Shown: in pieces, positions 5,732 through 63,247 of the stretch
How the letters are laid out: each line of letters starts with the position of its first letter
Numbering within the stretch: the stretch's first letter is position 1
From: a bacterium
GTDB taxonomy: Bacteria; Actinomycetota; Acidimicrobiia; Acidimicrobiales; Bin134
Assembly (NCBI GenBank): GCA_026708015.1
Contig: JAPOVT010000056.1
Coordinates: forward strand, 164,134-228,133
Length of the DNA: 64,000 nucleotides
Direction: 5' to 3'
Program-made: the position numbers and the translations under genes
The notes under the pieces: generated by a model
Told to the model about the DNA's origin: nothing
The model's database searches: none
Seen by the model: only the letters and a program-made list of their open reading frames with translations

Positions 5732-5859
5732 TTTCGTGACCTTGAGGGCGGGAAATCTTGAAACAGGTCTGGGGATTAGACGAGAATATATGGATAATGA
5801 CTGAGAAGCTAACGATTTCCCTGATGGTCGCGAGCCACACGCCTCTGTGCCAGCATTGG

Positions 5860-6645
5860 ATGATGGACTTGGGTCTTTTGGGCAAGGTCGCTTTGGTCAC
5901 AGGGAGCTATCGGGGGACGGGGAGTGGGATTGCCCGGGTGTTGGCTGCTGAGGGTGCCGAGGTAGTGGTCCACGGGTTTGAGGAGGGGCAGGCCGACTGG
6001 CTGGCTGACGAGCTGGGTTCGCCGGTCCGGGCGGTGTGGGGAGACATCTGCACCGATGAAGGGGCAGAGGCGGTGGCCAGCCAGTGCGGACCTGTCGATG
6101 TCTTGGTCAACAACTACGGGGTGGCGGTAGGCGGCACTTGGGGGGACGACGGCACCGATGTATGGGTTGACGCCTACAACCGCAACGTATTGAGCGCGGT
6201 GCGGATGACCCGGCTCATGGTTCCCGCCATGATGGAGCGGGGCTGGGGCCGAATTGTGCTGGTGTCCACGGTGGGGGCGACCCGCCCTGGCGACCGCATT
6301 CCGGGCTACTACGCGGCCAAAGGGGCCCTGCCCGCCATGACGGTGAGCTTGGCCCGGGAGTTGGCCGGCACTGGAGTGACGGTGAACTGCGTGAGCCCAG
6401 GGGCCATCGCCACCTCGGAGTTGGTGGAGATGTGGACCCGCCAGGCGGAGCGGGAGGGCCGCTCCACGGATTGGGACGACATCGAGCGCCATGTCACCAC
6501 GGTGCAGATGCCCACGCTCACTGGGCGCATCGCCACCGTGTCCGATGTGGGCGAGCTGGTGGCGTTTGTGTGCAGCGATCGGGCTCGTCAGATCCACGGT
6601 GCTCATCTGCGGATCGACGGGGGCGCGGCCGACGTCGTCACATAA
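5860..6645 (+). CDS. SDR-family oxidoreductase
   Basis: 'GKVALVTGSYRGTGSGIA', 'NNYG', 'YYAAKGAL'. Start moved to ATG 5860/5863 inside ORF 5758-6645. Confidence 0.8.
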   Translation: MMDLGLLGKVALVTGSYRGTGSGIARVLAAEGAEVVVHGFEEGQADWLADELGSPVRAVWGDICTDEGAEAVASQCGPVDVLVNNYGVAVGGTWGDDGTDVWVDAYNRNVLSAVRMTRLMVPAMMERGWGRIVLVSTVGATRPGDRIPGYYAAKGALPAMTVSLARELAGTGVTVNCVSPGAIATSELVEMWTRQAEREGRSTDWDDIERHVTTVQMPTLTGRIATVSDVGELVAFVCSDRARQIHGAHLRIDGGAADVVT

Positions 6646-53415: not shown

Positions 53416-55074
53416 TTACAGCCCCAGTTCGGCTTGGAGCTTTTCGGCTAGGCGGAATTTCTGGATCTTGGTGGCGGACATGGGCCATTCGTTGGGAGCC
53501 ACGAACTGGACGTGGCGGGGGATCTTGAAGCTGGCGATCTGGCCTCGGCAGAACTCGATCAGCTCCTCCTCAGTGGCCTCGGCGTCGGGCTTGAGCTCGA
53601 CGAATGCCGCTGGCACCTCGGCGTACTTCTCGTCGGGCAGGGGGACCACCTGGGCGATGGCCACCGCCGGGTGGGTTTGGAGGTAGCTCTCGATCTCCAC
53701 CGCGGCCACGTTCTCGCCGCCCACCTTGAGCATGTCCTTGGTGCGACCCAGATAGCTGATGCGCCCATCCGGGTCGAGCGAGCCGATGTCGCCGGTGAAG
53801 AACCAGCCCTCCTCGTCGAAGCACTCGGCGTTCTTCTCCGGGTCCTTGTAGTAGCCCTCGAACACGTTGTAGCCCCGCACCCAGATCTCTCCCGGTTGGT
53901 TGGGCTCAGAGAGCGTTTCTCGGGTTTCGAGGTTCTTGATCTTGACCTCGATGCCCCGGAACGGGCGGCCCGACGACACCGCCCAGGTCTCCGGCGGGTC
54001 GTCGGGGCCGGAGAAGGACACCACGCCGCCGCACTCGGTGAGTCCGTAGGCATTCACATGGCGGGCCCAGGGGAGCAGGGCGTGGATGGCCCGCAGGGCA
54101 TCGGGCGGTGCCACGTTGTTCATCAGCCGGATGCGCTGGAACTCGTCGGAGTCCCAGTCGGGGTGGTTGATCATGGCCTGGGTGACCGGAGGGAAGGTGG
54201 AGAAGCACACGGTGGCCTTCTCATCCCGCATCTGCGCGATGGCCTCGGCTGGGTCGAAGTGGGTGATGGTCACGTAGGACGACCCCGCGTCCAGGCAGCC
54301 GATGAGAGGGAGAATCGAGCTCATGTGGAACAGGGGGAGCGGGTCCCAGAACACGTCGGTGTCGGTCAGCTCGAACCGGGACCGGCATGCCGTGACCGCG
54401 GTGCGCACCAGCGACTCGTGGTTCAAGGGGCAGCCCTTGGGCTCTGCGGTGGTGCCCGAGGTGTAGATCATGAGGGCCTCGTTGCGGATGGCCACCCGGG
54501 TACGGAGCAACTCCACCTCGTCGTCTGTGGCATCGTCGGCGAGGGCTTCGAACGCAGACCGGTCCACCATTCCGGCCGGGGAAGAACTGCCCAGCAGCAC
54601 TACTGCCTTCAGCTCGGGAGCAACATCGAGATCGAGATTGGCCGGATCAGCAGCTTCTGCCAGACCGGGCAGGCAGTCGTGGAGGATCACCACATAGTCG
54701 GTGAACTGGTCGATGATGTCGCTGGTGACCAGTACCTTCAGGTCGGCGTTCTCGGTGACGTAGGCCAATTCCCGCCCCTTGAAGCGGGCATTGATGGGAA
54801 CCGGAACCGCGCCAATGAGCGCCACTCCAAACATCACCTCGATGAAGTCCATGCAGTTGGGCATGAGGATCCCCACCCGGTCTTGGGGTCGAACCCCTAG
54901 CCCCAAAAGCGACCGAGCCGACCGCCTGGCCGCGGCCTCCAACGAGTTGAAGCTGTGCCGGGTATCGGGAAACACCACCGCGTCCTGGTCCCCATACAAC
55001 GCAGCCCCCCGCACCACCAGATCGCCATACGTGGTCACGTCAACCCAAGTGCTCATCCCCGTAGCTTCGCGCAC
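53416..55074 (-). CDS. AMP-dependent acyl-CoA synthetase/ligase
   Basis: 'MIYTSGTTAEPKGC', 'WFFTGDIGSLDPDGRISYLGRTKDMLKVGGENVA', 'TKIQKFRL'. ATG 55056 is an alternative start. Confidence 0.85.
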   Translation of the reverse strand: MREATGMSTWVDVTTYGDLVVRGAALYGDQDAVVFPDTRHSFNSLEAAARRSARSLLGLGVRPQDRVGILMPNCMDFIEVMFGVALIGAVPVPINARFKGRELAYVTENADLKVLVTSDIIDQFTDYVVILHDCLPGLAEAADPANLDLDVAPELKAVVLLGSSSPAGMVDRSAFEALADDATDDEVELLRTRVAIRNEALMIYTSGTTAEPKGCPLNHESLVRTAVTACRSRFELTDTDVFWDPLPLFHMSSILPLIGCLDAGSSYVTITHFDPAEAIAQMRDEKATVCFSTFPPVTQAMINHPDWDSDEFQRIRLMNNVAPPDALRAIHALLPWARHVNAYGLTECGGVVSFSGPDDPPETWAVSSGRPFRGIEVKIKNLETRETLSEPNQPGEIWVRGYNVFEGYYKDPEKNAECFDEEGWFFTGDIGSLDPDGRISYLGRTKDMLKVGGENVAAVEIESYLQTHPAVAIAQVVPLPDEKYAEVPAAFVELKPDAEATEEELIEFCRGQIASFKIPRHVQFVAPNEWPMSATKIQKFRLAEKLQAELGL

Positions 55075-55156
55075 CCTGCCAGTTTGTTGCCTCCCCAGGA
55101 GATGGAGAGATCGAAAAATGTATAGGTGTTGTCACTTTTCGGCTATTTTTGTCGAC

Positions 55157-56305
55157 ATGGTGTACACAAGGCTCTTGGCGGTTCCCGACAGGAGCTTCTT
55201 TCTGTTCGGCGTGCGAGGCGTGGGCAAGAGCACATGGGTGCGCATGATGTTGCCTGAAGCCACCCGCTTCGACCTGCTGGACGAGGCGCTGTTCACTGAT
55301 CTGCTGGCCGATCCAGCGTTGTTCGGGAACCTCTTGTCAGGCGTTGAGCCAGGACACTGGGTGGTAGTGGACGAAGTGCAGCGCATACCCGCACTGCTCA
55401 ATGAGGTTCACCGCCAGATTGAAGAACGAGGTATTCGCTTTGCATTACTGGGCTCCAGCGCCCGGAAACTCAAGACTGCGGGCACGAATCTGCTGGCTGG
55501 GCGGGCAGCTCGCAAGGCCATGTATCCGCTCACTCCGGCCGAATTGGGTGGCGATTTCGATCTAGACGAGGCCCTTCGCTTTGGAACCATCCCTCTGGTT
55601 TGGGCCGCCGATGACCGCCGTGAAGTCTTGGAGAGCTACACCCAGCTCTATCTTCGCGAGGAGATCAGAGCTGAGGCCGCGGTGCGGAATCTGCCCGGTT
55701 TCATTCGATTCCTCCCGGTGGCCGCGCTGATGCATGCCCAGACGCTCAATGTGGTTGGCTTGGCACGAGACACAGGAGTTGCCCGTCCCACCGTGGCCGG
55801 CTATCTGGAGGTGCTAGAAGACACACTGCTCGTAACCCGCTTGGAGGCGTTCGAGGCCAAACTCCGGGTGCGAGAGCGACGACGTCCCAAGCTCTATTGG
55901 GTCGACCCCGGCTTGGTGAGAGCAGCGAAGCGACAACTCGATCCGGTGACCGCCGAAGAGCGAGGCGCGTTGTTGGAGGGCTGGGTCTATGGGCTTCTAA
56001 GGGCCCACAACGAAACCCAAGCGATCTTCGATGCCATTGCCTATTGGTCGCCCACCGAGTCGGATGCTGAGGTCGACTTCCTGCTCACTCGCGGCAATGA
56101 GCATCTCGCCCTCGAAGTCAAGGCCTCGACCGGCTACAACACCACCATGCTGAAGGGCCTGCGAGCCATCGACGGCCTGGCTGGCTTGACACGCCGCATC
56201 CTTATCTACAACGGCACCCGCGACTTCCGAACCGAAGACGGGATCCACGTCTGGCCCGTCGACCAATTTCACGAAGCTCTCACCACTGACCGGCTTTGGC
56301 CCTGA
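55157..56305 (+). CDS. AAA-type ATPase with DUF4143-like C-terminal PD-(D/E)xK module
   Basis: Walker A 'GVRGVGKST', Walker B 'WVVVDEVQ'. C-terminal 'AEVDFLLTRGNEHLALEVKAS' (D...ExK). Start at ATG 55157 after an AT-rich leader. Confidence 0.75.
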   Translation: MVYTRLLAVPDRSFFLFGVRGVGKSTWVRMMLPEATRFDLLDEALFTDLLADPALFGNLLSGVEPGHWVVVDEVQRIPALLNEVHRQIEERGIRFALLGSSARKLKTAGTNLLAGRAARKAMYPLTPAELGGDFDLDEALRFGTIPLVWAADDRREVLESYTQLYLREEIRAEAAVRNLPGFIRFLPVAALMHAQTLNVVGLARDTGVARPTVAGYLEVLEDTLLVTRLEAFEAKLRVRERRRPKLYWVDPGLVRAAKRQLDPVTAEERGALLEGWVYGLLRAHNETQAIFDAIAYWSPTESDAEVDFLLTRGNEHLALEVKASTGYNTTMLKGLRAIDGLAGLTRRILIYNGTRDFRTEDGIHVWPVDQFHEALTTDRLWP

Positions 56306-56348
56306 GCAGTTACTGCGCCGTGTTTCCATGTTCTGGTAGACACAGTTT

Positions 56349-56561
56349 GTGGACCTGGTTATCAAGAACCTCGACGAAGAAGTTGCCCGGCGACTGGAGG
56401 AGCAGGCAGTTGCCGCTGGGGTACCGCTGCATTGGCATGTGCAAAACGAGCTAGCTCGTATTGCTTCCCGACTCTCACCTGCTGAGCTGGTCAGTGGCCG
56501 TCAGCCGATGAACCGATCAGAGTTCGAGGCCATACGGCAGCGCTTGCGTAGTCAGGCCTGA
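56349..56561 (+). CDS. ribbon-helix-helix (Arc/FitA/VapB-like) small protein
   Basis: GTG start. 'VDLVIKNLDEEVARRLEEQAVAAGVPLHWHVQNELARIA' fits the RHH antitoxin/regulator pattern. No PIN or other toxin gene follows. Confidence 0.5.
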   Translation: MDLVIKNLDEEVARRLEEQAVAAGVPLHWHVQNELARIASRLSPAELVSGRQPMNRSEFEAIRQRLRSQA

Positions 56562-56661
56562 CAATTCATACTGCGCGAAAGTGTCTCTCGCTTTCAGATA
56601 ATGACATAAGTGTGAGTTGGAATCGCACTACCGTCTACACCAAGGAAGCGAGGGACCGAGG

Positions 56662-57744
56662 ATGTCCAGAACCATCCGCTCGATTGATCTGTTCGCGGGG
56701 GCAGGGGGCTTGTCGCTGGGATTCGATCTAGCCAACGACGAACTCGACAGCATCAGGTTTGAGTCCGCTTTCGCAGTTGAGCACGATCCCGCAGCAGCGC
56801 TGACCTACAAGACCAATTTCGGCGTCACCGTGTACGACGGTGATATCGAAGGGTTTGACCCGATCACTTACCCAGAAGCGGAGGTCATTGTCGGTGGCCC
56901 TCCCTGCCAGGGGTTTTCCCCGCTCGGCCGTGACCGGGATGACCAGTCTCGTGCTGAGTTGAACGCACTCTGGGAGCACTATCTCGCTGCGGTCGAGCAA
57001 GTTGAGCCGTTGGCATTCGTCATTGAGAACGTCCCGGAGTTTCAGAAGTCGGCTGAGTTCGAAGAGCTGCTGAGACGACTCGCATCTCATCCGCTGTTAC
57101 GCGAGTACTGCTATAGCTACGGAGTGCTGAACGCGGTGGACTATGGAGTTCCACAAAGCCGGCGGAGGGGAATCTTTATGGCGGTGAGAGGCAGGGAGGT
57201 TCCGTGGCCGCCACCCCCCACGCATGGGGGTGGTCCAATAGGCCAGGAACCGGCGCGGACGGTGCGGGATGCCATTGGGGATCTGCCACCGAAGCCAACG
57301 ACAGACCAGCCAGTCATGAGAGACGGGTTTCAGGACCTGCATATCCGCCGGAACCCACGGCCGACTTCTCTAGAGCGATACCAGGCAATCCCCGAGGGCG
57401 GCAACCGGTTCGACCTCCAGCGAGCTCGACCCGACCTAACCCCTGCCTGCTGGGCCAACAAGCCGACCGGAACGACGGACGTTATGGGCCGGTTGTGGTG
57501 GGACAGGCCCAGCTTTACCATCCGCACCGAGTTCTACAAGCCCGAGAAGGGTCGCTACCTGCACCCCAGCGAGGACCGCCCCATCACCCACCGCGAGGCT
57601 GCTCGACTCCAGACCTTCCCAGATGTCTTCATTTTCGAAGGCACCAAAATCGAGATCGCCCGCCAGATCGGCAACGCCGTCCCCTCGCTGCTGGGCAAGG
57701 CCATCGCCCTCCATCTCGCAAAGCTGCTGGGGCAGGGACGGTAG
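56662..57744 (+). CDS. DNA (cytosine-5)-methyltransferase
   Basis: Motif I 'DLFAGAGGLSLGF', IV 'GGPPCQGFS', VI 'FVIENVPEF', VIII 'QSRRR', X 'GNAVP'. Confidence 0.9.
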   Translation: MSRTIRSIDLFAGAGGLSLGFDLANDELDSIRFESAFAVEHDPAAALTYKTNFGVTVYDGDIEGFDPITYPEAEVIVGGPPCQGFSPLGRDRDDQSRAELNALWEHYLAAVEQVEPLAFVIENVPEFQKSAEFEELLRRLASHPLLREYCYSYGVLNAVDYGVPQSRRRGIFMAVRGREVPWPPPPTHGGGPIGQEPARTVRDAIGDLPPKPTTDQPVMRDGFQDLHIRRNPRPTSLERYQAIPEGGNRFDLQRARPDLTPACWANKPTGTTDVMGRLWWDRPSFTIRTEFYKPEKGRYLHPSEDRPITHREAARLQTFPDVFIFEGTKIEIARQIGNAVPSLLGKAIALHLAKLLGQGR

Positions 57745-57784
57745 GGATTGACCGTCAACAAGCTGTTTTGTAGAACTTCGGCCA

Positions 57785-58687
57785 GTGAACGCAAGACCAG
57801 ATCCTGAATTAGAAGCGGTTGCCGATGAATTGATGGGCATTCGAGACTTCGAGAGCCGAGTAGCGACCGTCCTTCGGGACACGCTTGACCAGCTCTACGA
57901 TGGCCAACGCACCGGACGGTACAAGTGGGATCAGCTTCACAAGACGGAAAAGACCCATTGCGGAACCTTGGTCGAGATCAACATGCAGCGCGAGTTCCAG
58001 TTCGCAGACGGCAAGAAGCTCGACTACAAGATCGCCAACATAGAAGTGGACTGTAAGTACTCGCAGAAGCTGGGCGGTTGGATGATCCCAGTAGAGGCTC
58101 GAGGCGAGTTGTGCATGGTGATCTGGGCTGATGACGGTAAGTCGGTTTGGACGCTGGGTTTGGTCAGAGCTCTCAAGGAGATGCTCACCAAGGGGGGAAA
58201 TAGGGACAGGAAAGCCAGCCTCAGCCAAGACGGGATGTCATCAGTACGCTGGCTCTTCCAGGAAAGCGAACTCCCACCAAACGTCCTGCTCCAGATTCCA
58301 GAAGCTGACGTCAACCACATCATGGGGCCCAAGTCTGGGGCCGAAAGGATCCGACGCCTGTTCCGCACCGTGCAGGGCCAGCGGATAGGACGTGGTGTCG
58401 TGGCCACCGTCGCCCAACAAGCCGACTACATGAAGCGAATCCGCGGCAACGGCGGTGCCCGCAGCCAGCTCCGGGAAGAAGGCATCATCATCCTCGGCCA
58501 GTACGAGGCCCACCGCGAGATCGCTCGCCAACTTGGAATCACAGTCCCTGGCAAAGGCGAGTCAGTCAGCGCCCGGGTAAGGGTTTCTGATTCTTCTACT
58601 CCAGACTCTGTGCTGATCGAAGGTTCTTGGTGGTGTTTAGCACGAGAAGTAGATTCAGCGGTGAAAGCTCCTGATGTGTCCACTTAG
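57785..58687 (+). CDS. type II restriction endonuclease, NaeI family
   Basis: 'LRDTLDQLYDGQRTGRYKWDQLHKTEKTHCGTLVEINMQREFQF', 'LDYKIANIEVDCKYS', 'VATVAQQADYMKRIRGNGGARSQLREEGIIILG' closely follow the NaeI sequence as I recall it. GTG start. Confidence 0.75.
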   Translation: MNARPDPELEAVADELMGIRDFESRVATVLRDTLDQLYDGQRTGRYKWDQLHKTEKTHCGTLVEINMQREFQFADGKKLDYKIANIEVDCKYSQKLGGWMIPVEARGELCMVIWADDGKSVWTLGLVRALKEMLTKGGNRDRKASLSQDGMSSVRWLFQESELPPNVLLQIPEADVNHIMGPKSGAERIRRLFRTVQGQRIGRGVVATVAQQADYMKRIRGNGGARSQLREEGIIILGQYEAHREIARQLGITVPGKGESVSARVRVSDSSTPDSVLIEGSWWCLAREVDSAVKAPDVST

Positions 58688-59583
58688 TGAGAGCGGAAGA
58701 CTTCAGCAGAGTTATGGCGGGATGGTTACGTACATGTCGAAGCACAATGGATGGCATTACAATGACAACAGATGCATTTGATGATCTAAAAAAACACTTC
58801 AAGGCAATGGCGATCGAGTTGAAGAGCAAAGGCGAACAAGCAAGCGTGTTTGCCCACACTTCGGACACCGGAACGGAACGGGAGGAAGCATATCGAACCT
58901 TTCTTGAGCGACATCTCCCAAAGACCTGCGATGTGTTCCTTGGCGGGTACTTGTTTGATATGAATGGAGCTAAATCCTCCCAGATGGATGTCATAGTTAC
59001 CGATGGGCATACTCCTAGATTCGTTATGCCGGATGGCAGCAAGCACATTGCGCCATTGGAGGGATCAGTCGGTGTCGCTGAGATAAAATCTAAGTTGGAC
59101 AAGGATTCACTGCTTAGGGCTCTAGAGGGATGCGCGTCGATCCCTGGTATGCCAGACAAAAGTGGGCTTGCCAACCCTATGTTGAAATTGCATGATGAAG
59201 GCTGGTTAGACACTCCCTATAAGGTGATCTTTGCTTATGATGGAGTGGCGGCAGATACACTTCTAGACCATCTCAATAGTTTCTATCTTGAACACAGCGA
59301 TATAACTTTAGACAGACGGCCTAATGTCATTCATGTATTGGGTAAGTATATGATCATTCGAGTGGTTTCTGGAATATCCTTTCAGACAATTGGTGATGCA
59401 CCAAGCGACGATTCTCTTTCGATCGGACAATTTGAGGCACTGACCGTTCAGCCTGATGTGTCTGCAATGCTTTGGATTATAAATGCCCTGCACAAAAAGG
59501 CCTCTACCGCTTCTCATCTCTTGTACAAATTTGATGCATGGCACGAAAACATTGTCATGCGTCTTGTGGCTGAGCCTGCCTGA
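58687..59583 (+). CDS. DUF6602-like predicted PD-(D/E)xK protein with unrecognised C-terminal half
   Basis: 'TGTEREEAYRTFLERHLPKTCDVFLGGYLFDMNGAKSSQMDVIVTD...PLEGSVGVAEIKSKL'. GC is 21/60 (58741-58800) and 22/60 (59281-59340). Start uncertain: GTG 58687 overlapping the NaeI-like stop, or ATG 58714/58747/58762. Confidence 0.5.
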   Translation: MRAEDFSRVMAGWLRTCRSTMDGITMTTDAFDDLKKHFKAMAIELKSKGEQASVFAHTSDTGTEREEAYRTFLERHLPKTCDVFLGGYLFDMNGAKSSQMDVIVTDGHTPRFVMPDGSKHIAPLEGSVGVAEIKSKLDKDSLLRALEGCASIPGMPDKSGLANPMLKLHDEGWLDTPYKVIFAYDGVAADTLLDHLNSFYLEHSDITLDRRPNVIHVLGKYMIIRVVSGISFQTIGDAPSDDSLSIGQFEALTVQPDVSAMLWIINALHKKASTASHLLYKFDAWHENIVMRLVAEPA

Positions 59584-59828
59584 CGTCTGGCAGCATGTCC
59601 GACTCATGGCGCGGCTTTTGACACGGGGCTGATAACCGTTAATGGGGGGCTCAAAGTTCATCTGGCGCAGAAACTTGAGACGAGTACCCGTGCTGACCCC
59701 GGCGTTGACCAGTACCTCGGCCAGCGCTCAGACCAAAGTTGGTGATTCCAGAGCAGGGTGAGCGTCCTGGGGATACCTACTTGACCTGGCACCAAGAGCA
59801 CGTCTTTCAGAGGGTCGTCGCGACCTGA
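59584..59828 (+). pseudogene. HNH (HNH_2-type) endonuclease, 3' remnant with frameshift
   Basis: Frame 1 reads 'RLAACPTHGAAFDTGLITVNGGLKVHLAQKLE...' to TGA 59743. Frame 0 continues 'ALRPKLVIPEQGERPGDTYLTWHQEHVFQRVVAT*' to the stop at 59826-59828. There is no N-terminal part and no start codon. Confidence 0.5.
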
Positions 59829-59846
59829 CGCTGAGCTCTTGATGGT

Positions 59847-60710
59847 TTATGACGTTTCGAGGAGCGCGTCGCAGTCGATGAGGGTGGGGTTGGTGGGTGC
59901 GAGGCGGCGGATCATCACTTGGATGGCTTCGGGGTTGTTGTCGATGAGGAGGTAGTCGCGGCCGTGTTTGGCGGCGGCTTCGCCGAGGGTGCCGCTGCCA
60001 GCGAAGAAGTCGAGCAGGAGGTCGCCTGGTCTTGAGTGGACCTTCACCAGGCGCTCGAGGACGCCGAGGGGCTTTTGGGTGGCGTAGCCGGTCTTCTCTT
60101 TGCCGTTGGGGCTCACGATGGTGTGCCACCAAACGTCGGTGGGGGTCTTGCCCCGGGCGGCCTTCTCCTTGCCGACCAGACCGGGGGCCATGTAGGGGAT
60201 TCGATCCATCTCGTCGAAGTTGAACGTGTAGTCAGCAGGGTCTTTGGCGTACCACAGGATGCTGTCGTGCTTGGCCGACCACTTCTTCTTGGAGCGGGCT
60301 CCGTAGTCGTAGGCCCAGATGATCTCGTTCATGAACGAGTCCCGGCCGAAGATCTGATCGAGCAGCACCTTGCAGTAGTGGACCTCCCGGTAGTCGATGT
60401 GGAGAAAGAAACTGCCGGTGTCGGCTAGGACCCGGTGGGCTTCCTCGAATCGGGGGGCGAGAAATTCCATGTAGTCGTCGAAGGCGTCGTCATAGCCCGA
60501 CTTGCCAAGGCGGATCGTCTGGTAGCGGCGACCGGCGAAGCCAGTTCGGTCGCCGTTGGTTTCGTCGTGAATGGTCTTGAACCGCTCGCGCTCTTGCCGC
60601 TTACCGGTGTTGAAAGGCGGGTCAACGTAAATGAGGTCGACGCTGGCGTCGGGCAAGCTCTGCAGCACCGGCAGGTTGTCGCCAAAGACGATCTTCCCCA
60701 TCCCGGCCAA
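59847..60710 (-). CDS. site-specific DNA methyltransferase, beta class (DPPF; N6-adenine or N4-cytosine)
   Basis: Motif IV 'LIYVDPPFNTG' precedes motif I 'LLLDFFAGSGTLGEAA'. 'TQKPLGVLERLV' is also present. Confidence 0.85.
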   Translation of the reverse strand: MAGMGKIVFGDNLPVLQSLPDASVDLIYVDPPFNTGKRQERERFKTIHDETNGDRTGFAGRRYQTIRLGKSGYDDAFDDYMEFLAPRFEEAHRVLADTGSFFLHIDYREVHYCKVLLDQIFGRDSFMNEIIWAYDYGARSKKKWSAKHDSILWYAKDPADYTFNFDEMDRIPYMAPGLVGKEKAARGKTPTDVWWHTIVSPNGKEKTGYATQKPLGVLERLVKVHSRPGDLLLDFFAGSGTLGEAAAKHGRDYLLIDNNPEAIQVMIRRLAPTNPTLIDCDALLETS

Positions 60711-60740
60711 TCCTAGTGGTCAGGCTCCGACCTACTGGGT

Positions 60741-60794
60741 ATATTGAAAGATATTGAAATGACTGGAATCCACAGTTATTTCCACATATCCACA
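60741..60794. repeat. AT-rich junction: 10-bp tandem direct repeat plus three head-to-tail DnaA-box-like 9-mers
   Basis: atattgaaag/atattgaaat (60741-60760). GAATCCACA (60766-74), ATTTCCACA (60778-86), ATATCCACA (60786-94) versus TTATCCACA. GC is 19/60 over 60741-60800. Confidence 0.5.
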
Positions 60795-60816
60795 GAACTT
60801 GAGACTTCGAACCTGC

Positions 60817-61641
60817 CTACCAGGGTGCTGGTCTGAAGCGGAGGCCTAGCAGGACGGGGATTTCGTCTTCGAGGCTTGGCGGGATGTAGAAGTCGGTGTG
60901 TTGAGTGGGCGGTTCTTCCAGGGCGCTTTTGGTGACCTCGGCGAAGCCGTCCACCACTAGGCTGGCATCGAAAGCGAGGTTCAGCTCGTGGGAGATGGGC
61001 CGATGGAAGTTGAGTTGCTCTTGGGGTTGACCGGGCATCCCGACGACTTCTTGGGCCATCGGTGTGAGGTAGTGGGAGATGATGATTCCCTCACGTTGGT
61101 CCTCGCTGGCCAGTTCTCCTTCGACTGTGAATTGCAGGTTGCTGGGGTTCTTGAACACCGGATGCATGGTCACCACCACCGCCACGCCGCCAGGCTTCAG
61201 GCAATGGGCGATGGCGGTGAAGAGGTCTTCGCTGGCCGGGATGTCCATGAGTGCCATCGTGCATGTCACAAAGTCGAACGAGCCCGGCTCGACATGGTCG
61301 GCTGTTTCAGCCAGCGGGAAGCAGAGCCACTCGATTTCTGTGCTGCGGTCATACGGCTCGGCAAGCTCTAGGAAAGTCTTTGACTGGTCGGCTCCGGTGA
61401 CTTGGGCCCCGAGTTCGACGAGCTGGCGAGCCAGGACGCCGCTGCCGCAGCAGAGGTCGATGCCTCGTTTGCCCTGGATATCGCCCAGCAGGTTAAGAGT
61501 GGTCGGTAGCACCAGGTTCCGGTGCCAGTCATTGCCGGCATCCCTGTGGCGGCTGTCGTAGTAGTGGGCCAGTACGTCCCAGTCGTCCTTCACCCGCTGG
61601 TCATGCTCGGCACTGGGTCGCTGACTCTTGGCATCAGACAT
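60817..61641 (-). CDS. class I SAM-dependent methyltransferase
   Basis: Motif I 'GIDLCCGSGVLARQL', post-I 'VTGADQS', 'LKPGGVAVVV'. Start at ATG 61641. Confidence 0.75.
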   Translation of the reverse strand: MSDAKSQRPSAEHDQRVKDDWDVLAHYYDSRHRDAGNDWHRNLVLPTTLNLLGDIQGKRGIDLCCGSGVLARQLVELGAQVTGADQSKTFLELAEPYDRSTEIEWLCFPLAETADHVEPGSFDFVTCTMALMDIPASEDLFTAIAHCLKPGGVAVVVTMHPVFKNPSNLQFTVEGELASEDQREGIIISHYLTPMAQEVVGMPGQPQEQLNFHRPISHELNLAFDASLVVDGFAEVTKSALEEPPTQHTDFYIPPSLEDEIPVLLGLRFRPAPW

Positions 61642-61690
61642 GGGAAGTCGTGGTCCTAACTCGGTGGCAGCCGATCTGCCGCTGGCCACG

Positions 61691-63247
61691 CTAGCTGGCT
61701 GCCGTGGTGCCGGCGGCGCGGGCCGCGACCAGCATTGGGCCGATGGTGCCGCCTGCGCCGGGGTAGGCCGCGCCGAGGGGGCTGGCGGCGGCGTTGCCCA
61801 CCGCGTAGAGCCCCTCGATGAGGCCGCCATCTTGGTGGCGGACCTGGCCATGGATGTCGGTTCGGGGGCCTCCCTTGGTGCCGAGGCAACCGGGATGGAG
61901 GCGAACGGCGTAGAACGGCGGCTCTTCAAGCGGGCCGAGCGTGGGGTGGGGGGCCGTCGGGTCGCCGACAAAGCGGTCGTAGATGGAGCGGCCCCAGCCG
62001 AAGTCGGGGTCGTCTCCGGTGACGGCCAGATGGTTGAATCGGGTTACCGAGGCAGCTAGCTCTTCGCTGTCTACGCCGATAGCGGTGGCTAGTTCGTCCA
62101 AGCTGTCGGCTCGATGCAGCCACTCCGGATCAGGGCCGTCTCTGCGGAGCGGCCCCAGGTGGTAGCGGCGGCGGTAGCCGGAGTCGAATACCAGCCAGGC
62201 GGTGGCCGCCGGGTATTGGAACCCGGTGGGGTCGAAGGCCTGCATGGCCCGGCCTACGTCGTTGTAGTTGCGGGCCTCGTTGGCGAACCGCCGTCCCCGT
62301 GAGTCCACCATCAGCGACCGGGGCCGAGCGCGCTCGGTGAGCACCAGCCGGTGGAATGGCTCGCCGTCGATGGCTTCTCCGAGCACGGTCATGGCCGGAC
62401 ACCACCACGCCTCGGCCATGTTGCCCAACTCAGCCCCGGCGGCTAGCGACAAGCGCAGCGCAGTCCCGTCCATGCCGGGGGCGCCTACCGGTCCGGTCAT
62501 CGGCCCTCGCAGAAACGCCCGAACCAAGGCGGGATCGCGCTCGAATCCACCGGAGGCCAGGATCACCCGCCCGGTGATCACGTCAGGGCCGATCCGCACG
62601 CCGTTCACCTTGCCGCCTGACTGCGCCAAACCGTCCACGCCGACGCCGGTGAGTATTGCTGCCCCCAAGGCTTCGGCAGCTTCTACCAAAGAGGCGATCA
62701 TCGATCGGCCCATGGTGATCACGCCGCTGCGGGTCCGGGCCGCTATGTTGTCACGGTCGAAGTCACCGGTGGCCAGTTCCCGGTACGTGATTGGGGCAGT
62801 CACATTGGGTGCCGTGCGGATGCGCTGGTCGAGCTCTGGCGACGCCCGGCGGGGCTGGGGCTCCAGGGGGCGATGGCCTGGTTTTCCGCCCGGTAGCTCG
62901 GGGTGGTAGTCGGGATAGGGGACCGTTTGCCACGAAAGCCCGGTGGTCGAATCCAGCCAATCGGCCACTGCGGGTGCCTGATCGGCGAAGTAGTCCAATA
63001 GCTCGTCGTCCACATCCCCTAGGCACAGCGCCTGCAAGTACTCGCGGGCCTCGGCAAGAGAGTCGTCCACTCCTTCAGCGGCCATCAGCCGGTTGGCCGG
63101 CATCCAGGCCAAACCTCCCGACAGCGCGGTAGTCCCGCCCAGCACCGGCGCTCGCTCCACCACAGTCACCTCGGCTCCCGACTGGGCCGCGGCCACCGCG
63201 GCGGTCAATCCGGCAGCCCCCGACCCGACAACCACTACCGAGGACAT
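61691..63247 (-). CDS. FAD-dependent oxidoreductase, 3-oxosteroid 1-dehydrogenase (KstD)/fumarate-reductase flavoprotein-like
   Basis: 'VVVVGSGAAGLTAAVAAAQSGAEVTVVERAPVLGGTTALSGGLAWMPAN' and C-terminal 'GLYAVGNAAASPLGAAYPGAGGTIGP'. Confidence 0.7.
   Translation of the reverse strand: MSSVVVVGSGAAGLTAAVAAAQSGAEVTVVERAPVLGGTTALSGGLAWMPANRLMAAEGVDDSLAEAREYLQALCLGDVDDELLDYFADQAPAVADWLDSTTGLSWQTVPYPDYHPELPGGKPGHRPLEPQPRRASPELDQRIRTAPNVTAPITYRELATGDFDRDNIAARTRSGVITMGRSMIASLVEAAEALGAAILTGVGVDGLAQSGGKVNGVRIGPDVITGRVILASGGFERDPALVRAFLRGPMTGPVGAPGMDGTALRLSLAAGAELGNMAEAWWCPAMTVLGEAIDGEPFHRLVLTERARPRSLMVDSRGRRFANEARNYNDVGRAMQAFDPTGFQYPAATAWLVFDSGYRRRYHLGPLRRDGPDPEWLHRADSLDELATAIGVDSEELAASVTRFNHLAVTGDDPDFGWGRSIYDRFVGDPTAPHPTLGPLEEPPFYAVRLHPGCLGTKGGPRTDIHGQVRHQDGGLIEGLYAVGNAAASPLGAAYPGAGGTIGPMLVAARAAGTTAAS

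What the first reader, a model, noticed from the sequence alone, without database searches (positions are those of the whole stretch)
55075..60816. Composite nuclease/methylase islet wedged into a catabolic neighbourhood
Between an acyl-CoA synthetase (ends 55074) and a SAM-methyltransferase plus KstD-like gene (from 60817) sit seven features. None has a metabolic reading:
- an AAA-ATPase with a PD-(D/E)xK tail
- an RHH protein
- an m5C methyltransferase
- a NaeI-family endonuclease
- a low-GC DUF6602-like gene
- an HNH remnant
- a convergent DPPF methyltransferase

Composition falls stepwise: flanking genes about 68% GC in a sampled line, 35-37% inside 58.7-59.6 kb, and 32% at the right junction. 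Both borders are short AT-rich spacers (55075-55156 and 60711-60816). I see no integrase, transposase or tRNA. It therefore looks like a layered defence islet built by cassette replacement rather than a classical mobile element. The combination, and especially the low-GC gene, is the best candidate here for an undescribed system.
Basis: partly seen in the sequence, partly recalled or inferred. Interest (0 to 1): 0.7.

Follow-up and report, generated by a model that had tools for sequence, protein, structure and literature searches.

The report
Defence-gene hotspot in a sponge symbiont
This 5.7-kb stretch is a variable anti-phage defence hotspot in a sponge-associated actinobacterium, made of independent modules of known kinds, and its only unusual part is a recently acquired AT-rich nuclease shaped like the immune nuclease NucC.

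Summary
All seven features are present at or near the stated coordinates, and the low-GC gene is the most AT-rich 900 bp of the 64-kb window.

The host is Candidatus Poriferisocius (Acidimicrobiia). In about 40 related genomes, the gap between the acyl-CoA synthetase and the KstD-like gene is a hypervariable slot filled with different defence genes. More distant relatives carry a single ordinary gene there.

The window holds four separable modules:
- An AAA_14-DUF4143 ATPase (PADLOC candidate PDC-S01) plus a lone ribbon-helix-helix gene.
- An intact NaeI-type restriction-modification pair.
- A 273-aa DUF6602 protein with a full-length NucC fold.
- A conserved N4/N6 methyltransferase left alone after its HNH partner was cut down to an 80-codon remnant.

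The DUF6602 gene occurs only in this species. Its relatives sit inside type I restriction operons in 6 of 11 other contexts. The one described DUF6602 defence is the single-gene system Damona.

"Layered islet built by module replacement" is supported. "Undescribed system" is not, because the modules vary independently and each belongs to a known or candidate family.

Still unexplained: the nuclease's activation mechanism, its link to restriction operons, and its persistently low GC.

The parts
55075..55156 (.). Left AT-rich spacer between the divergent acyl-CoA synthetase and AAA genes. It is the left edge of the variable slot.
   Evidence: 46% GC against 63% for the window. In relatives that lack the AAA gene, homology breaks at 55072-55080.
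55157..56305 (+). AAA_14-DUF4143 ATPase with a C-terminal D...ExK motif. It matches the PADLOC single-gene defence candidate PDC-S01.
   Evidence: Pfam AAA_14 at 1.8e-16 and DUF4143 at 2.6e-30. PDC-S01 at 5.3e-53. The motif is conserved in a 26%-identical homologue. Present at 86-95% identity next to the synthetase in about 13 relatives and absent in others.
56349..56561 (+). 70-aa ribbon-helix-helix protein, probably an antitoxin that has lost its partner.
   Evidence: FitA-like_RHH at E 5.8e-5, below the Pfam cut-off. In at least 9 relatives a 56-67% identical gene directly precedes a 124-aa ORF (cluster c9) that has no Pfam match. That ORF is missing in the window and in L016.
56617..57744 (+). 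C5-cytosine DNA methyltransferase of the NaeI-type R-M pair. The probable start is 56662, giving 360 aa.
   Evidence: PF00145 at 1.8e-54, covering profile positions 2-322 of 324. TIGR00675 dcm. PADLOC MTase_II. Motifs FAGAGG, PPCQGFS and ENVP are readable in the translation. The 360-aa gene call comes from the sister strain L064.
57785..58687 (+). NaeI-family type IIE restriction endonuclease, full length.
   Evidence: PF09126 at 8e-112. PDB 1EV7 NaeI at E 1.2e-85 over residues 3-298 against 9-311. The VEIN, (T/L)DY and VDCK segments that hold NaeI's acidic and lysine catalytic residues are conserved. Present with the m5C methyltransferase in about 10 relatives.
58762..59583 (+). 273-aa DUF6602 protein, a NucC-fold PD-(D/E)xK nuclease. 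It is AT-rich and occurs only in this species at this locus.
   Evidence: PF20247 at 7.7e-21. PADLOC Cas-associated PD_DExK at 5e-23 and NucC at 1e-12. AlphaFold2 model with pLDDT 88 and pTM 0.89. The top 14 Foldseek PDB hits are all NucC, TM 0.61-0.75 over about 270 columns. D76, E107 and K109 are conserved. No homologue in 42 related loci. The start is set by 273-aa homologues.
59587..59825 (+). 3' remnant of an HNH_2 restriction endonuclease gene, covering codons 263-342 of 342, with one frameshift.
   Evidence: tblastn against the intact 342-aa gene of L001 gives 87% and 73% identity in two frames. The intact gene matches PF13391 HNH_2 and PADLOC HNH / type II REase. It lies convergent to the same methyltransferase in L001, L002, L006, L008, L012 and L032.
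59847..60710 (-). Beta-class N4/N6 DNA methyltransferase (DPPF, then FFAGSGT). It is a long-resident gene and is now solitary.
   Evidence: PF01555 at 2.5e-48. PADLOC MTase_II PDLC03300 at 1.7e-140. 89-97% identical in about 20 relatives. GC3 of 0.85 equals the core genes. It is frameshifted in the sister strain L064.
60711..60816 (.). Right AT-rich spacer, a further insertion point in relatives.
   Evidence: 43% GC. Homology to several relatives breaks between about 60716-60796 and 60809-60831, where they carry extra small ORFs.
60817..61641 (-). Class-I SAM methyltransferase (274 aa). It is semi-conserved, lies inside the variable interval, and is probably not a DNA methyltransferase.
   Evidence: Methyltransf_11/25/23 domains. 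The best NCBIfam hits are small-molecule methyltransferases, all below cut-off. It is absent from some relatives, and a 633-aa gene (c7) lies between it and KstD in others.

Best explanation
The interval between the acyl-CoA synthetase and the KstD-like gene is a chromosomal defence hotspot of the genus Candidatus Poriferisocius. In this genome it holds four modules that act independently.

1. A NaeI-type IIE restriction-modification pair. The m5C methyltransferase protects the host's own sites, and the endonuclease cuts unmethylated incoming DNA. The target is presumably GCCGGC, inferred from 1EV7 similarity.

2. A NucC-fold, Mg-dependent PD-(D/E)xK DNA endonuclease (DUF6602).
- It was acquired only in this species. 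Its arrival is associated with the loss of the first 262 codons of the neighbouring HNH endonuclease gene.
- I think it most likely works as a self-contained second-line nuclease effector of the Damona type. It would be held inactive until infection and then degrade DNA.
- Its family's habit of sitting inside restriction operons suggests co-expression with, or backup for, restriction systems.

3. An AAA_14-DUF4143 ATPase-nuclease candidate (PDC-S01), with an orphan RHH antitoxin beside it.

4. A solitary beta-class N4/N6 methyltransferase, the survivor of a decayed HNH restriction system.

The islet was assembled by successive module gain, loss and replacement, probably through recombination in the conserved flanks. 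It is not an integrase-borne element.

Shown: gene identities, fold, catalytic motifs, synteny and breakpoints. Inferred: enzymatic activities, recognition sites, the trigger of the DUF6602 nuclease, and the recombination mechanism.
For: Identities.

Hotspot:
- 61 loci were fetched with the synthetase.
- The N4/N6 methyltransferase is in about 20 relatives, AAA-DUF4143 in about 13, m5C+NaeI in about 10, and DUF6602 in none.
- The same slot elsewhere holds IetAS plus a UvrD-like helicase, a second m5C system, HNH and small type II endonucleases, PIN/RHH pairs and a trypsin-like protease.
- More distant species (synthetase 86-89% identical) carry only a P450-like protein, a probable cation transporter or a 646-aa c7-type protein between KstD and the synthetase.

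Breakpoints: nucleotide homology with relatives ends at 58569-58587 and resumes at 59585-59590 or 59848-59857.

HNH remnant.

DUF6602:
- NucC fold and an intact D...ExK motif.
- Damona precedent.
- Restriction-operon embedding in 6 of 11 other contexts, with ATGA start/stop overlaps.
- The other five contexts are also defence-type.

No tRNA, integrase or flanking repeats.
Against: - No activity was measured for any gene.
- The trigger and ligand of the DUF6602 nuclease are unknown.
- A cyclic-oligonucleotide synthase elsewhere in the genome cannot be excluded from a 64-kb window.
- GCCGGC is not depleted in the window: 53 sites against 56 expected. This gives no independent sign of NaeI activity.
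- PDC-S01 is only a predicted defence candidate.
- The RHH match is below Pfam's threshold.
- All related sequences are metagenome-assembled genomes (MAGs), so some indels, including the L064 methyltransferase frameshift, could be assembly errors.
Confidence: 0.8

Rival explanations
1. The DUF6602 nuclease and the convergent N4/N6 methyltransferase form a new type II restriction-modification pair. On this view the NucC-fold enzyme replaced the HNH endonuclease as the cognate nuclease.
For: - The gene sits exactly where the HNH gene's 5' part was lost, convergent to the methyltransferase.
[quoted passage not shown] Weak BbvCI and SgrAI fold hits appear.
- The same methyltransferase is paired with two different endonuclease types in relatives: HNH_2, or a small PDLC03515-type enzyme. 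Endonuclease swapping therefore does occur here.
Against: - In 11 other contexts, homologues are never next to this methyltransferase family. Six sit between or after hsdM and hsdS; the other five show no DNA methyltransferase in adjacent genes, though L082 carries an MmeI-type R-M gene about 5 kb away.
- In the 97.7%-identical sister strain L064, the methyltransferase is frameshifted near codon 177 while DUF6602 is intact at 99%. That would be lethal for a cognate pair.
- The methyltransferase is old and native in composition, while the nuclease is new.
Confidence: 0.06
2. The DUF6602 protein is a true NucC-type effector. It would be activated by a cyclic oligonucleotide made by a CBASS CD-NTase, a type III CRISPR Cas10 or a TIR enzyme encoded elsewhere in the genome.
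For: - Full-length NucC fold.
- The best PADLOC hit is a Cas-associated PD_DExK model.
- One homologue lies directly after two CRISPR arrays next to cas1, cas6 and Cas02710. Another lies directly after a ThsB_TIR gene.
- Invariant basic and aromatic residues (R50, H51, R86, F87) lie within 3 residues of the positions that align with NucC's cA3 contacts.
Against: - NucC's cA3-contacting R53 and Y81 both align with threonine in this family.
- No CD-NTase or Cas10 signature was noticed in a translation-only read of the window's ORF list; only 50.8-64 kb has domain annotation, via the sister strain.
- Most homologues sit in type I restriction operons that have no synthase.
- Sequence identity to NucC is only 14-17%.
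Confidence: 0.15
3. The seven features are parts of one integrated, undescribed multi-gene defence system.
For: Tight clustering. The first five genes share a strand with short gaps. An AAA_14-DUF4143 gene also lies beside the hsdM-hsdS-DUF6602 cluster in L062.
Against: - The modules are present or absent independently across about 40 relatives.
- The two AAA proteins are only 26% identical.
- Composition differs stepwise between modules.
- One component is a pseudogene remnant.
Confidence: 0.04
4. The interval is the remnant of an integrative mobile element whose integrase and attachment sites have been lost.
For: Foreign composition of several genes and AT-rich borders.
Against: - No integrase, transposase, tRNA or flanking repeats here.
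- No gene in the catalogued slots of relatives clustered with or was scanned as a mobility gene, though many clusters were left unannotated.
- The borders coincide with ordinary intergenic regions of conserved genes.
Confidence: 0.05

Closest known systems
NaeI type IIE restriction-modification system (R.NaeI, PDB 1EV7/1IAW, with an m5C methyltransferase)
   Same: The endonuclease is full length, with E 1.2e-85 to 1EV7 and the segments holding the catalytic residues conserved. A complete C5-methyltransferase lies directly upstream on the same strand.
   Different: The last ~40 C-terminal residues differ from NaeI and are hypervariable among relatives. The recognition site and the two-site requirement were not tested.
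NucC (cA3-activated DNA endonuclease of CBASS and type III CRISPR; PDB 6P7O, 6Q1H, 7ZGV)
   Same: Same overall fold across the full length (TM 0.61-0.75). Same ID...E-x-K catalytic motif.
   Different: Only 14-17% identical. The cA3 contacts R53 and Y81 are not conserved. There is no adjacent cyclase. Relatives sit mostly inside type I restriction operons rather than CBASS or type III CRISPR operons.
Damona (single-gene anti-phage system with a DUF6602 domain, from the Vibrio cholerae chromosomal integron; bioRxiv 10.1101/2024.07.02.601686)
   Same: A single gene of similar type carrying Pfam DUF6602. The authors also noted Cas PD_DExK and CBASS small-endonuclease matches.
   Different: The context differs: integron cassette or Acinetobacter prophage there, restriction operon or chromosomal hotspot here. 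Sequence relatedness could not be measured because the Damona sequence was not retrievable. DUF6602 proteins from cultured bacteria on plasmids are only 24-35% identical to the window protein.
Genes embedded in type I R-M operons (PrrC in EcoprrI; TgvAB in V. cholerae VPI-2; the 'guilt-by-embedding' candidates of Payne et al.)
   Same: Homologues of the window's nuclease lie between hsdM and hsdS, on the same strand, with overlapping stop and start codons. This is the architecture described in PMC11411939 and bioRxiv 10.1101/2024.01.29.577857.
   Different: The fold and chemistry differ from PrrC (an anticodon nuclease) and from TgvAB (GmrSD-like). In the window, the gene is next to a type II system, not a type I system. 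The window protein matches no PADLOC PDC model.
Defence islands and hotspots between conserved core genes; orphan methyltransferases left by R-M decay
   Same: Conserved flanks, variable defence cargo, no mobility genes, and a methyltransferase retained while its endonuclease is repeatedly truncated or replaced.
   Different: Nothing of principle. The host clade, an uncultured sponge symbiont, is new for such a description, as far as the searchable papers show.

Membership tests
NaeI-type type II R-M | Full-length NaeI-family endonuclease with its catalytic residues | tested here: met
   PF09126 covers profile positions 15-287 of 288. The 1EV7 alignment conserves the VEIN, xDY and VDCK segments.
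NaeI-type type II R-M | Adjacent cognate C5-cytosine methyltransferase with complete motifs | tested here: met
   PF00145 covers 2-322 of 324. FAGAGG, PPCQGFS and ENVP are present. The gene lies 40 bp upstream on the same strand.
NaeI-type type II R-M | Recognition of GCCGGC and activation by a second site | not testable with these tools
   The only indirect check was GCCGGC frequency, 53 observed against 56 expected, which is uninformative.
NucC family | Restriction-endonuclease core with the NucC-specific embellishments (overall fold) | tested here: met
   The AlphaFold2 model has pLDDT 88. The 14 best PDB hits are all NucC, with E 7e-14 to 8e-12 and TM up to 0.75.
NucC family | ID-x30-E-A-K catalytic motif (D73, E104, K106) | tested here: met
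   D76, E107 and K109 are invariant or at least 90% conserved in 43 sequences, and they align with D73, E104 and K106.
NucC family | cA3-binding residues R53, Y81 and T226, and gate-loop residues H136 and Y141 | tested here: not met
   R53 and Y81 both align with threonine (in PKTC and NTPRF). T226 and the gate loop lie outside the sequence alignment and were not assessed.
NucC family | Genetic linkage to a CD-NTase or Cas10 cyclase | tested here: not met
   No cyclase among the islet genes or the domain-annotated flanks at 50.8-64 kb; the ORFs at 1-50 kb were listed but not scanned against domain libraries. One of 11 homologue contexts is CRISPR-adjacent. The rest of the genome was not seen.
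Damona | Single gene carrying the DUF6602 domain | tested here: met
   PF20247 at 74 bits against a cut-off of 27. There is no obligate partner gene across contexts.
Damona | Sequence relatedness to the validated V. cholerae protein, and anti-phage activity | not testable with these tools
   The Damona sequence or locus tag was not found in the text or the held supplement.
Type I R-M-embedded accessory defence (PrrC-like arrangement) | Gene nested in an hsdM/hsdS/hsdR operon, on the same strand | tested here: not met
   Not met in the window, where there are no hsd genes. Met for homologues in L062, L063, L066, L067, L068 and L080.
Type I R-M-embedded accessory defence (PrrC-like arrangement) | Held inactive by the restriction complex and released by phage anti-restriction | not testable with these tools
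   This needs biochemistry or genetics.
PADLOC PDC-S01 | AAA_14 ATPase fused to DUF4143 | tested here: met
   Both Pfam domains are above cut-off. Seven PDC-S01 models are hit, the best at 5.3e-53. PDC systems are predictions, not validated defences.
Type II R-M (beta-class N4/N6 methyltransferase + HNH_2 endonuclease) | Intact methyltransferase and intact endonuclease | tested here: not met
   The methyltransferase is intact. The endonuclease is reduced to codons 263-342 with a frameshift. The pair is intact in L001, L002, L006, L008, L012 and L032.
Chromosomal defence hotspot | Conserved flanking core genes with variable, defence-enriched cargo across relatives | tested here: met
Integrative genomic island | Integrase or recombinase, tRNA or att target, and flanking direct repeats | tested here: not met

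The most novel reading that the evidence does not exclude
The 273-aa DUF6602 subfamily would be a distinct branch of NucC-fold nucleases that has lost the cA3 pocket. It would work as a restriction-linked second-line effector. It would be translationally coupled to hsdM and hsdS in type I operons, and here parked behind a type II pair. It would be kept at low dose by a persistently AT-rich, rare-codon gene, and unleashed when the restriction system is bypassed or inhibited, a DNA-cutting analogue of PrrC. It has spread horizontally among MAGs of several phyla, apparently sponge-associated.
Probability: 0.2. Interest if true: 0.6.

Novelty: new member of a known kind. Interest (0 to 1): 0.35.

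Why it matters
The result documents a defence hotspot in an uncultured sponge-symbiont genus, with a clear record of module turnover. That record includes repeated truncation and swapping of the endonuclease beside one conserved methyltransferase.

It also flags a compact NucC-fold nuclease family that rides inside restriction operons and stays AT-rich in GC-rich hosts. The family comprises about 185 clusters at 50% identity with E <= 1e-30.

If that family proves to be an R-M-coupled effector independent of cyclic nucleotides, it would extend how NucC-type nucleases can be controlled. It would also add a tested case to the "guilt-by-embedding" idea.

Otherwise the islet is an ordinary, well-explained defence island.

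Tried and rejected
- tRNA and Rfam scans of the whole window found nothing.
- The repeat search for att sites or terminal repeats around 54.8-61.1 kb found only short chance-level matches.
- The promoter and terminator scan was not above shuffled expectation.
- GCCGGC avoidance, as a sign of NaeI pressure, was absent.
- The metagenome-contig scan with the DUF6602 profile returned only 9 short loci, which added almost no context.
- The phage collection (tblastn) and the viral fold library (BFVD) gave no significant match.
- Plasmid hits were only distant, at 24-35% identity.
- The PDB sequence search for the AAA-DUF4143 protein found no match.
- The literature search on DUF4143 was uninformative.
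- Attempts to retrieve the Damona sequence or locus tag failed.
- I considered that NaeI's 3' end was imported together with DUF6602. I rejected this because the NaeI C-terminal tail is hypervariable in all relatives.
- I considered that the RHH controls the NaeI system. I judged this unlikely because in relatives without that system the RHH pairs with a 124-aa ORF.
- I considered that the window's and L004's HNH truncations are a shared event. I rejected this because L004 keeps codons 228-342 and the window keeps 263-342.

Full report
**Observation**

- AAA_14+DUF4143 ATPase, 55157-56305 (+). It has a Walker A motif and a C-terminal D...ExK motif that is also present in a 26%-identical homologue.
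- A 70-aa ribbon-helix-helix (RHH) protein, 56349-56561. Its FitA-like match is sub-threshold.
- C5-cytosine methyltransferase, 56617/56662-57744.
- NaeI-family endonuclease, 57785-58687.
- DUF6602 protein. The ORF begins at 58687, but homologues of 273 aa place the start at 58762. It ends at 59583.
- HNH remnant, 59587-59825.
- Convergent N6_N4 methyltransferase with DPPF, 59847-60710 (-).

The composition claims hold.
- The window is 63.4% GC.
- GC3 (GC at third codon positions) falls from 0.86 in the synthetase to 0.71, 0.71 and 0.66 in the AAA, m5C methyltransferase and NaeI genes, and to 0.46 in DUF6602. It returns to 0.85 in the N4/N6 methyltransferase.
- The DUF6602 gene is the lowest-GC 900 bp of the window.
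- The two border spacers are 46% and 43% GC.

No tRNA, Rfam family, integrase or meaningful flanking repeat is present.

**Organism and synteny**

A scan with the acyl-CoA synthetase found 61 loci. About 40 come from Candidatus Poriferisocius and related Acidimicrobiia MAGs (metagenome-assembled genomes); MAG labels such as IRC, CAR and SB are, from my own recollection of the source projects, sponge metagenome bins.

Mapping the window's proteins and DNA onto these loci, and cataloguing their ORFs, shows that the interval between the synthetase and the KstD-like gene is a hypervariable slot.
- The N4/N6 methyltransferase is present at 89-97% identity in about 20 relatives and has native codon composition.
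- AAA-DUF4143 is present in about 13 relatives.
- The m5C+NaeI pair is present in about 10.
- The RHH is usually followed by a 124-aa ORF that the window lacks.
- Elsewhere the slot holds IetAS with a UvrD-like helicase, a second m5C system, PIN/RHH pairs, a trypsin-like protease, and HNH and small type II endonucleases.
- More distant species (synthetase 86-89% identical) carry only a P450-like protein, a probable cation transporter or a 646-aa c7-type protein at this position.

The flanks are near-adjacent in some relatives, and the cargo is variable and defence-rich in the others.

**Breakpoints**

Nucleotide homology to relatives ends at 58569-58587, inside NaeI's hypervariable C-terminal tail. 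It resumes at 59585-59590, or at 59848-59857.

The 59587-59825 segment encodes codons 263-342 of a 342-aa HNH_2 endonuclease, with one frameshift. That endonuclease is intact and convergent to the same methyltransferase in six or more relatives.

So the roughly 1-kb DUF6602 segment is unique to this species. It is otherwise seen only in a 97.7%-identical sister-strain contig, L064, which is the same DNA as L065. It lies where the 5' part of the HNH gene was lost.

L004 carries an independent, longer HNH remnant. The endonuclease has therefore been truncated more than once.

**The DUF6602 protein**

- A 43-sequence alignment shows an invariant D76 and 90%-or-better conserved E107 and K109, the PD-(D/E)xK triad.
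- A profile search of PDB sequences finds only NucC, with E down to 5.6e-11.
- An AlphaFold2 model (pLDDT 88, pTM 0.89) matches NucC structures over its whole length. The 14 best Foldseek hits have TM 0.61-0.75, and the next hits are insignificant.
- NucC is a cA3-activated trimer-to-hexamer DNase. Its ligand contacts are R53, Y81 and T226, and its active site is D73, E104 and K106.
- In the HMM alignment the active site is conserved, but R53 and Y81 both align with threonine. Neighbouring invariant residues R50, H51, R86 and F87 leave a different nucleotide pocket possible.
- In the searchable literature, DUF6602 appears once, as the domain of Damona. Damona is a single-gene anti-phage system from the Vibrio cholerae integron.

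**Contexts of homologues**

Eleven contexts outside this species were examined.
- Six place the gene in a type I restriction operon. Five lie between hsdM and hsdS with ATGA overlaps, and one lies after hsdS. Two HsdM lineages are involved.
- One lies directly after two CRISPR arrays.
- One lies directly after a ThsB_TIR gene.
- Three are solitary, among toxin-antitoxin genes, transposases or other defence genes.

Embedding of defence genes inside type I operons is a described phenomenon. The PADLOC PDC models, including the PDC-S01 model hit by the window's AAA protein, come from that approach.

The family is modest in size: 185 clusters at 50% identity with E <= 1e-30, out of 1.84 billion representatives. 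Named members are MAGs of Chloroflexota, Bacteroidota and Caldilineaceae. No phage record or viral fold matched significantly.

**An unexplained trait**

The gene is AT-rich in every host examined. Its GC is 41-51% against 58-70% for the surrounding locus. Its GC3 is 0.47-0.61, against 0.79-0.91 for the hsdM gene whose stop codon it overlaps.

This holds even though it has co-diverged with HsdM and HsdR (62-82% identity for the nuclease against 69-87% and 66-87%). Low GC is therefore a standing property of the gene and not only a mark of recent transfer.

**Interpretation**

The islet is a mosaic of four independent modules, as set out in the best explanation.

- The alternative that DUF6602 and the convergent methyltransferase form a new R-M pair is weak. 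Homologues never accompany that methyltransferase family elsewhere, and five of the eleven show no DNA methyltransferase in adjacent genes. In the sister strain the methyltransferase is frameshifted while the nuclease is intact.
- The idea of one integrated seven-gene system is contradicted by the independent distribution of the modules.
- A classical mobile element is not supported.

What triggers the NucC-fold nuclease remains open: nothing, a cyclic nucleotide made elsewhere, or failure of a restriction system. That question is the only part of the finding with real novelty potential.

**Verdict**

This is a defence hotspot made of known kinds, with one recently acquired, poorly characterised nuclease. 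Interest is moderate to low.

Noticed in passing
L005:4076-5535, L014:3972-5464, L022:3351-4819; compare L001:6962-8872: The same conserved N4/N6 methyltransferase (87-97% identical) is paired with two unrelated endonucleases in different relatives. One is a convergent 342-aa HNH_2 enzyme. The other is a co-directional 178-aa type II REase (PADLOC PDLC03515, E 2.4e-45). This looks like endonuclease swapping beside a fixed methyltransferase.
   Followed up: partly
L063, L066, L067, L068, L080 (gene at 6001-68xx), and window 58762-59583: The DUF6602 gene keeps GC3 at 0.47-0.61 while the hsdM gene overlapping its start has 0.79-0.91, despite co-divergence of the two genes. The cause is unknown. 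It could be dose limitation, cassette turnover or site avoidance.
   Followed up: partly
L018:1848-7579 and L031:2339-8071: In two relatives the same hotspot carries IetA/IetS (E 1e-131 and 1e-255 to PADLOC models) next to a UvrD/GajB-like helicase.
   Followed up: partly
L011:1486-6560, L015:608-5689, L021:4452-7323: A three-gene block lies in the hotspot of other relatives. It comprises a 573-aa m5C methyltransferase, a 733-aa protein with a weak match to a PADLOC type II REase model (E 1.3e-8) and an unassigned 378-aa protein. It was not classified further.
   Followed up: no
L068:8617-10117 and L080:8179-8749: The type I operons that embed the DUF6602 gene also embed other cargo between hsdS and hsdR. 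L068 carries DarT plus a Macro protein (DarTG-like). L080 carries a DUF433 protein plus a 112-aa ORF.
   Followed up: no
L069:4253-5745: Two different CRISPR repeat types lie between cas1 and the DUF6602 homologue. One is a 16-copy array of a 37-nt repeat. The other is two copies of a 31-nt GGTTCCCCGC-type repeat.
   Followed up: partly
L083:5347-6819: A ThsB-like TIR gene (186 aa) sits 94 bp upstream of a DUF6602 homologue on the same strand. This may be a two-gene signalling pair.
   Followed up: no
L064:9086-9962 (= L065): In the sister strain, 97.7% identical to the window, the N4/N6 methyltransferase is split by a frameshift near codon 177. This is either real decay of the orphan methyltransferase or an assembly error.
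   Followed up: partly
window 61612-61692: Relative to L001, L002 and others, a 1.9-kb gene for a ~633-aa protein (cluster c7; not annotated here, possibly secreted) is missing between KstD and the SAM methyltransferase.
   Followed up: partly
window 60817-61971: The 384-aa ORF of the SAM methyltransferase has an N-terminal extension that overlaps the KstD-like gene in another frame. Relatives and the sister-strain annotation support a 274-aa product starting at 61641.
   Followed up: yes
L008:9308-9890, L012:8008-8590, L009:8074-8656 and others: In relatives the RHH gene is followed, after 4-17 bp, by a conserved 124-aa ORF with no Pfam match. This may be an uncharacterised toxin. The window has the RHH alone.
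   Followed up: partly
window 5761-5820: The only other markedly AT-rich 60-nt line in the window (40% GC) lies at the start of an ORF at 5758-6645. It was not examined.
   Followed up: no
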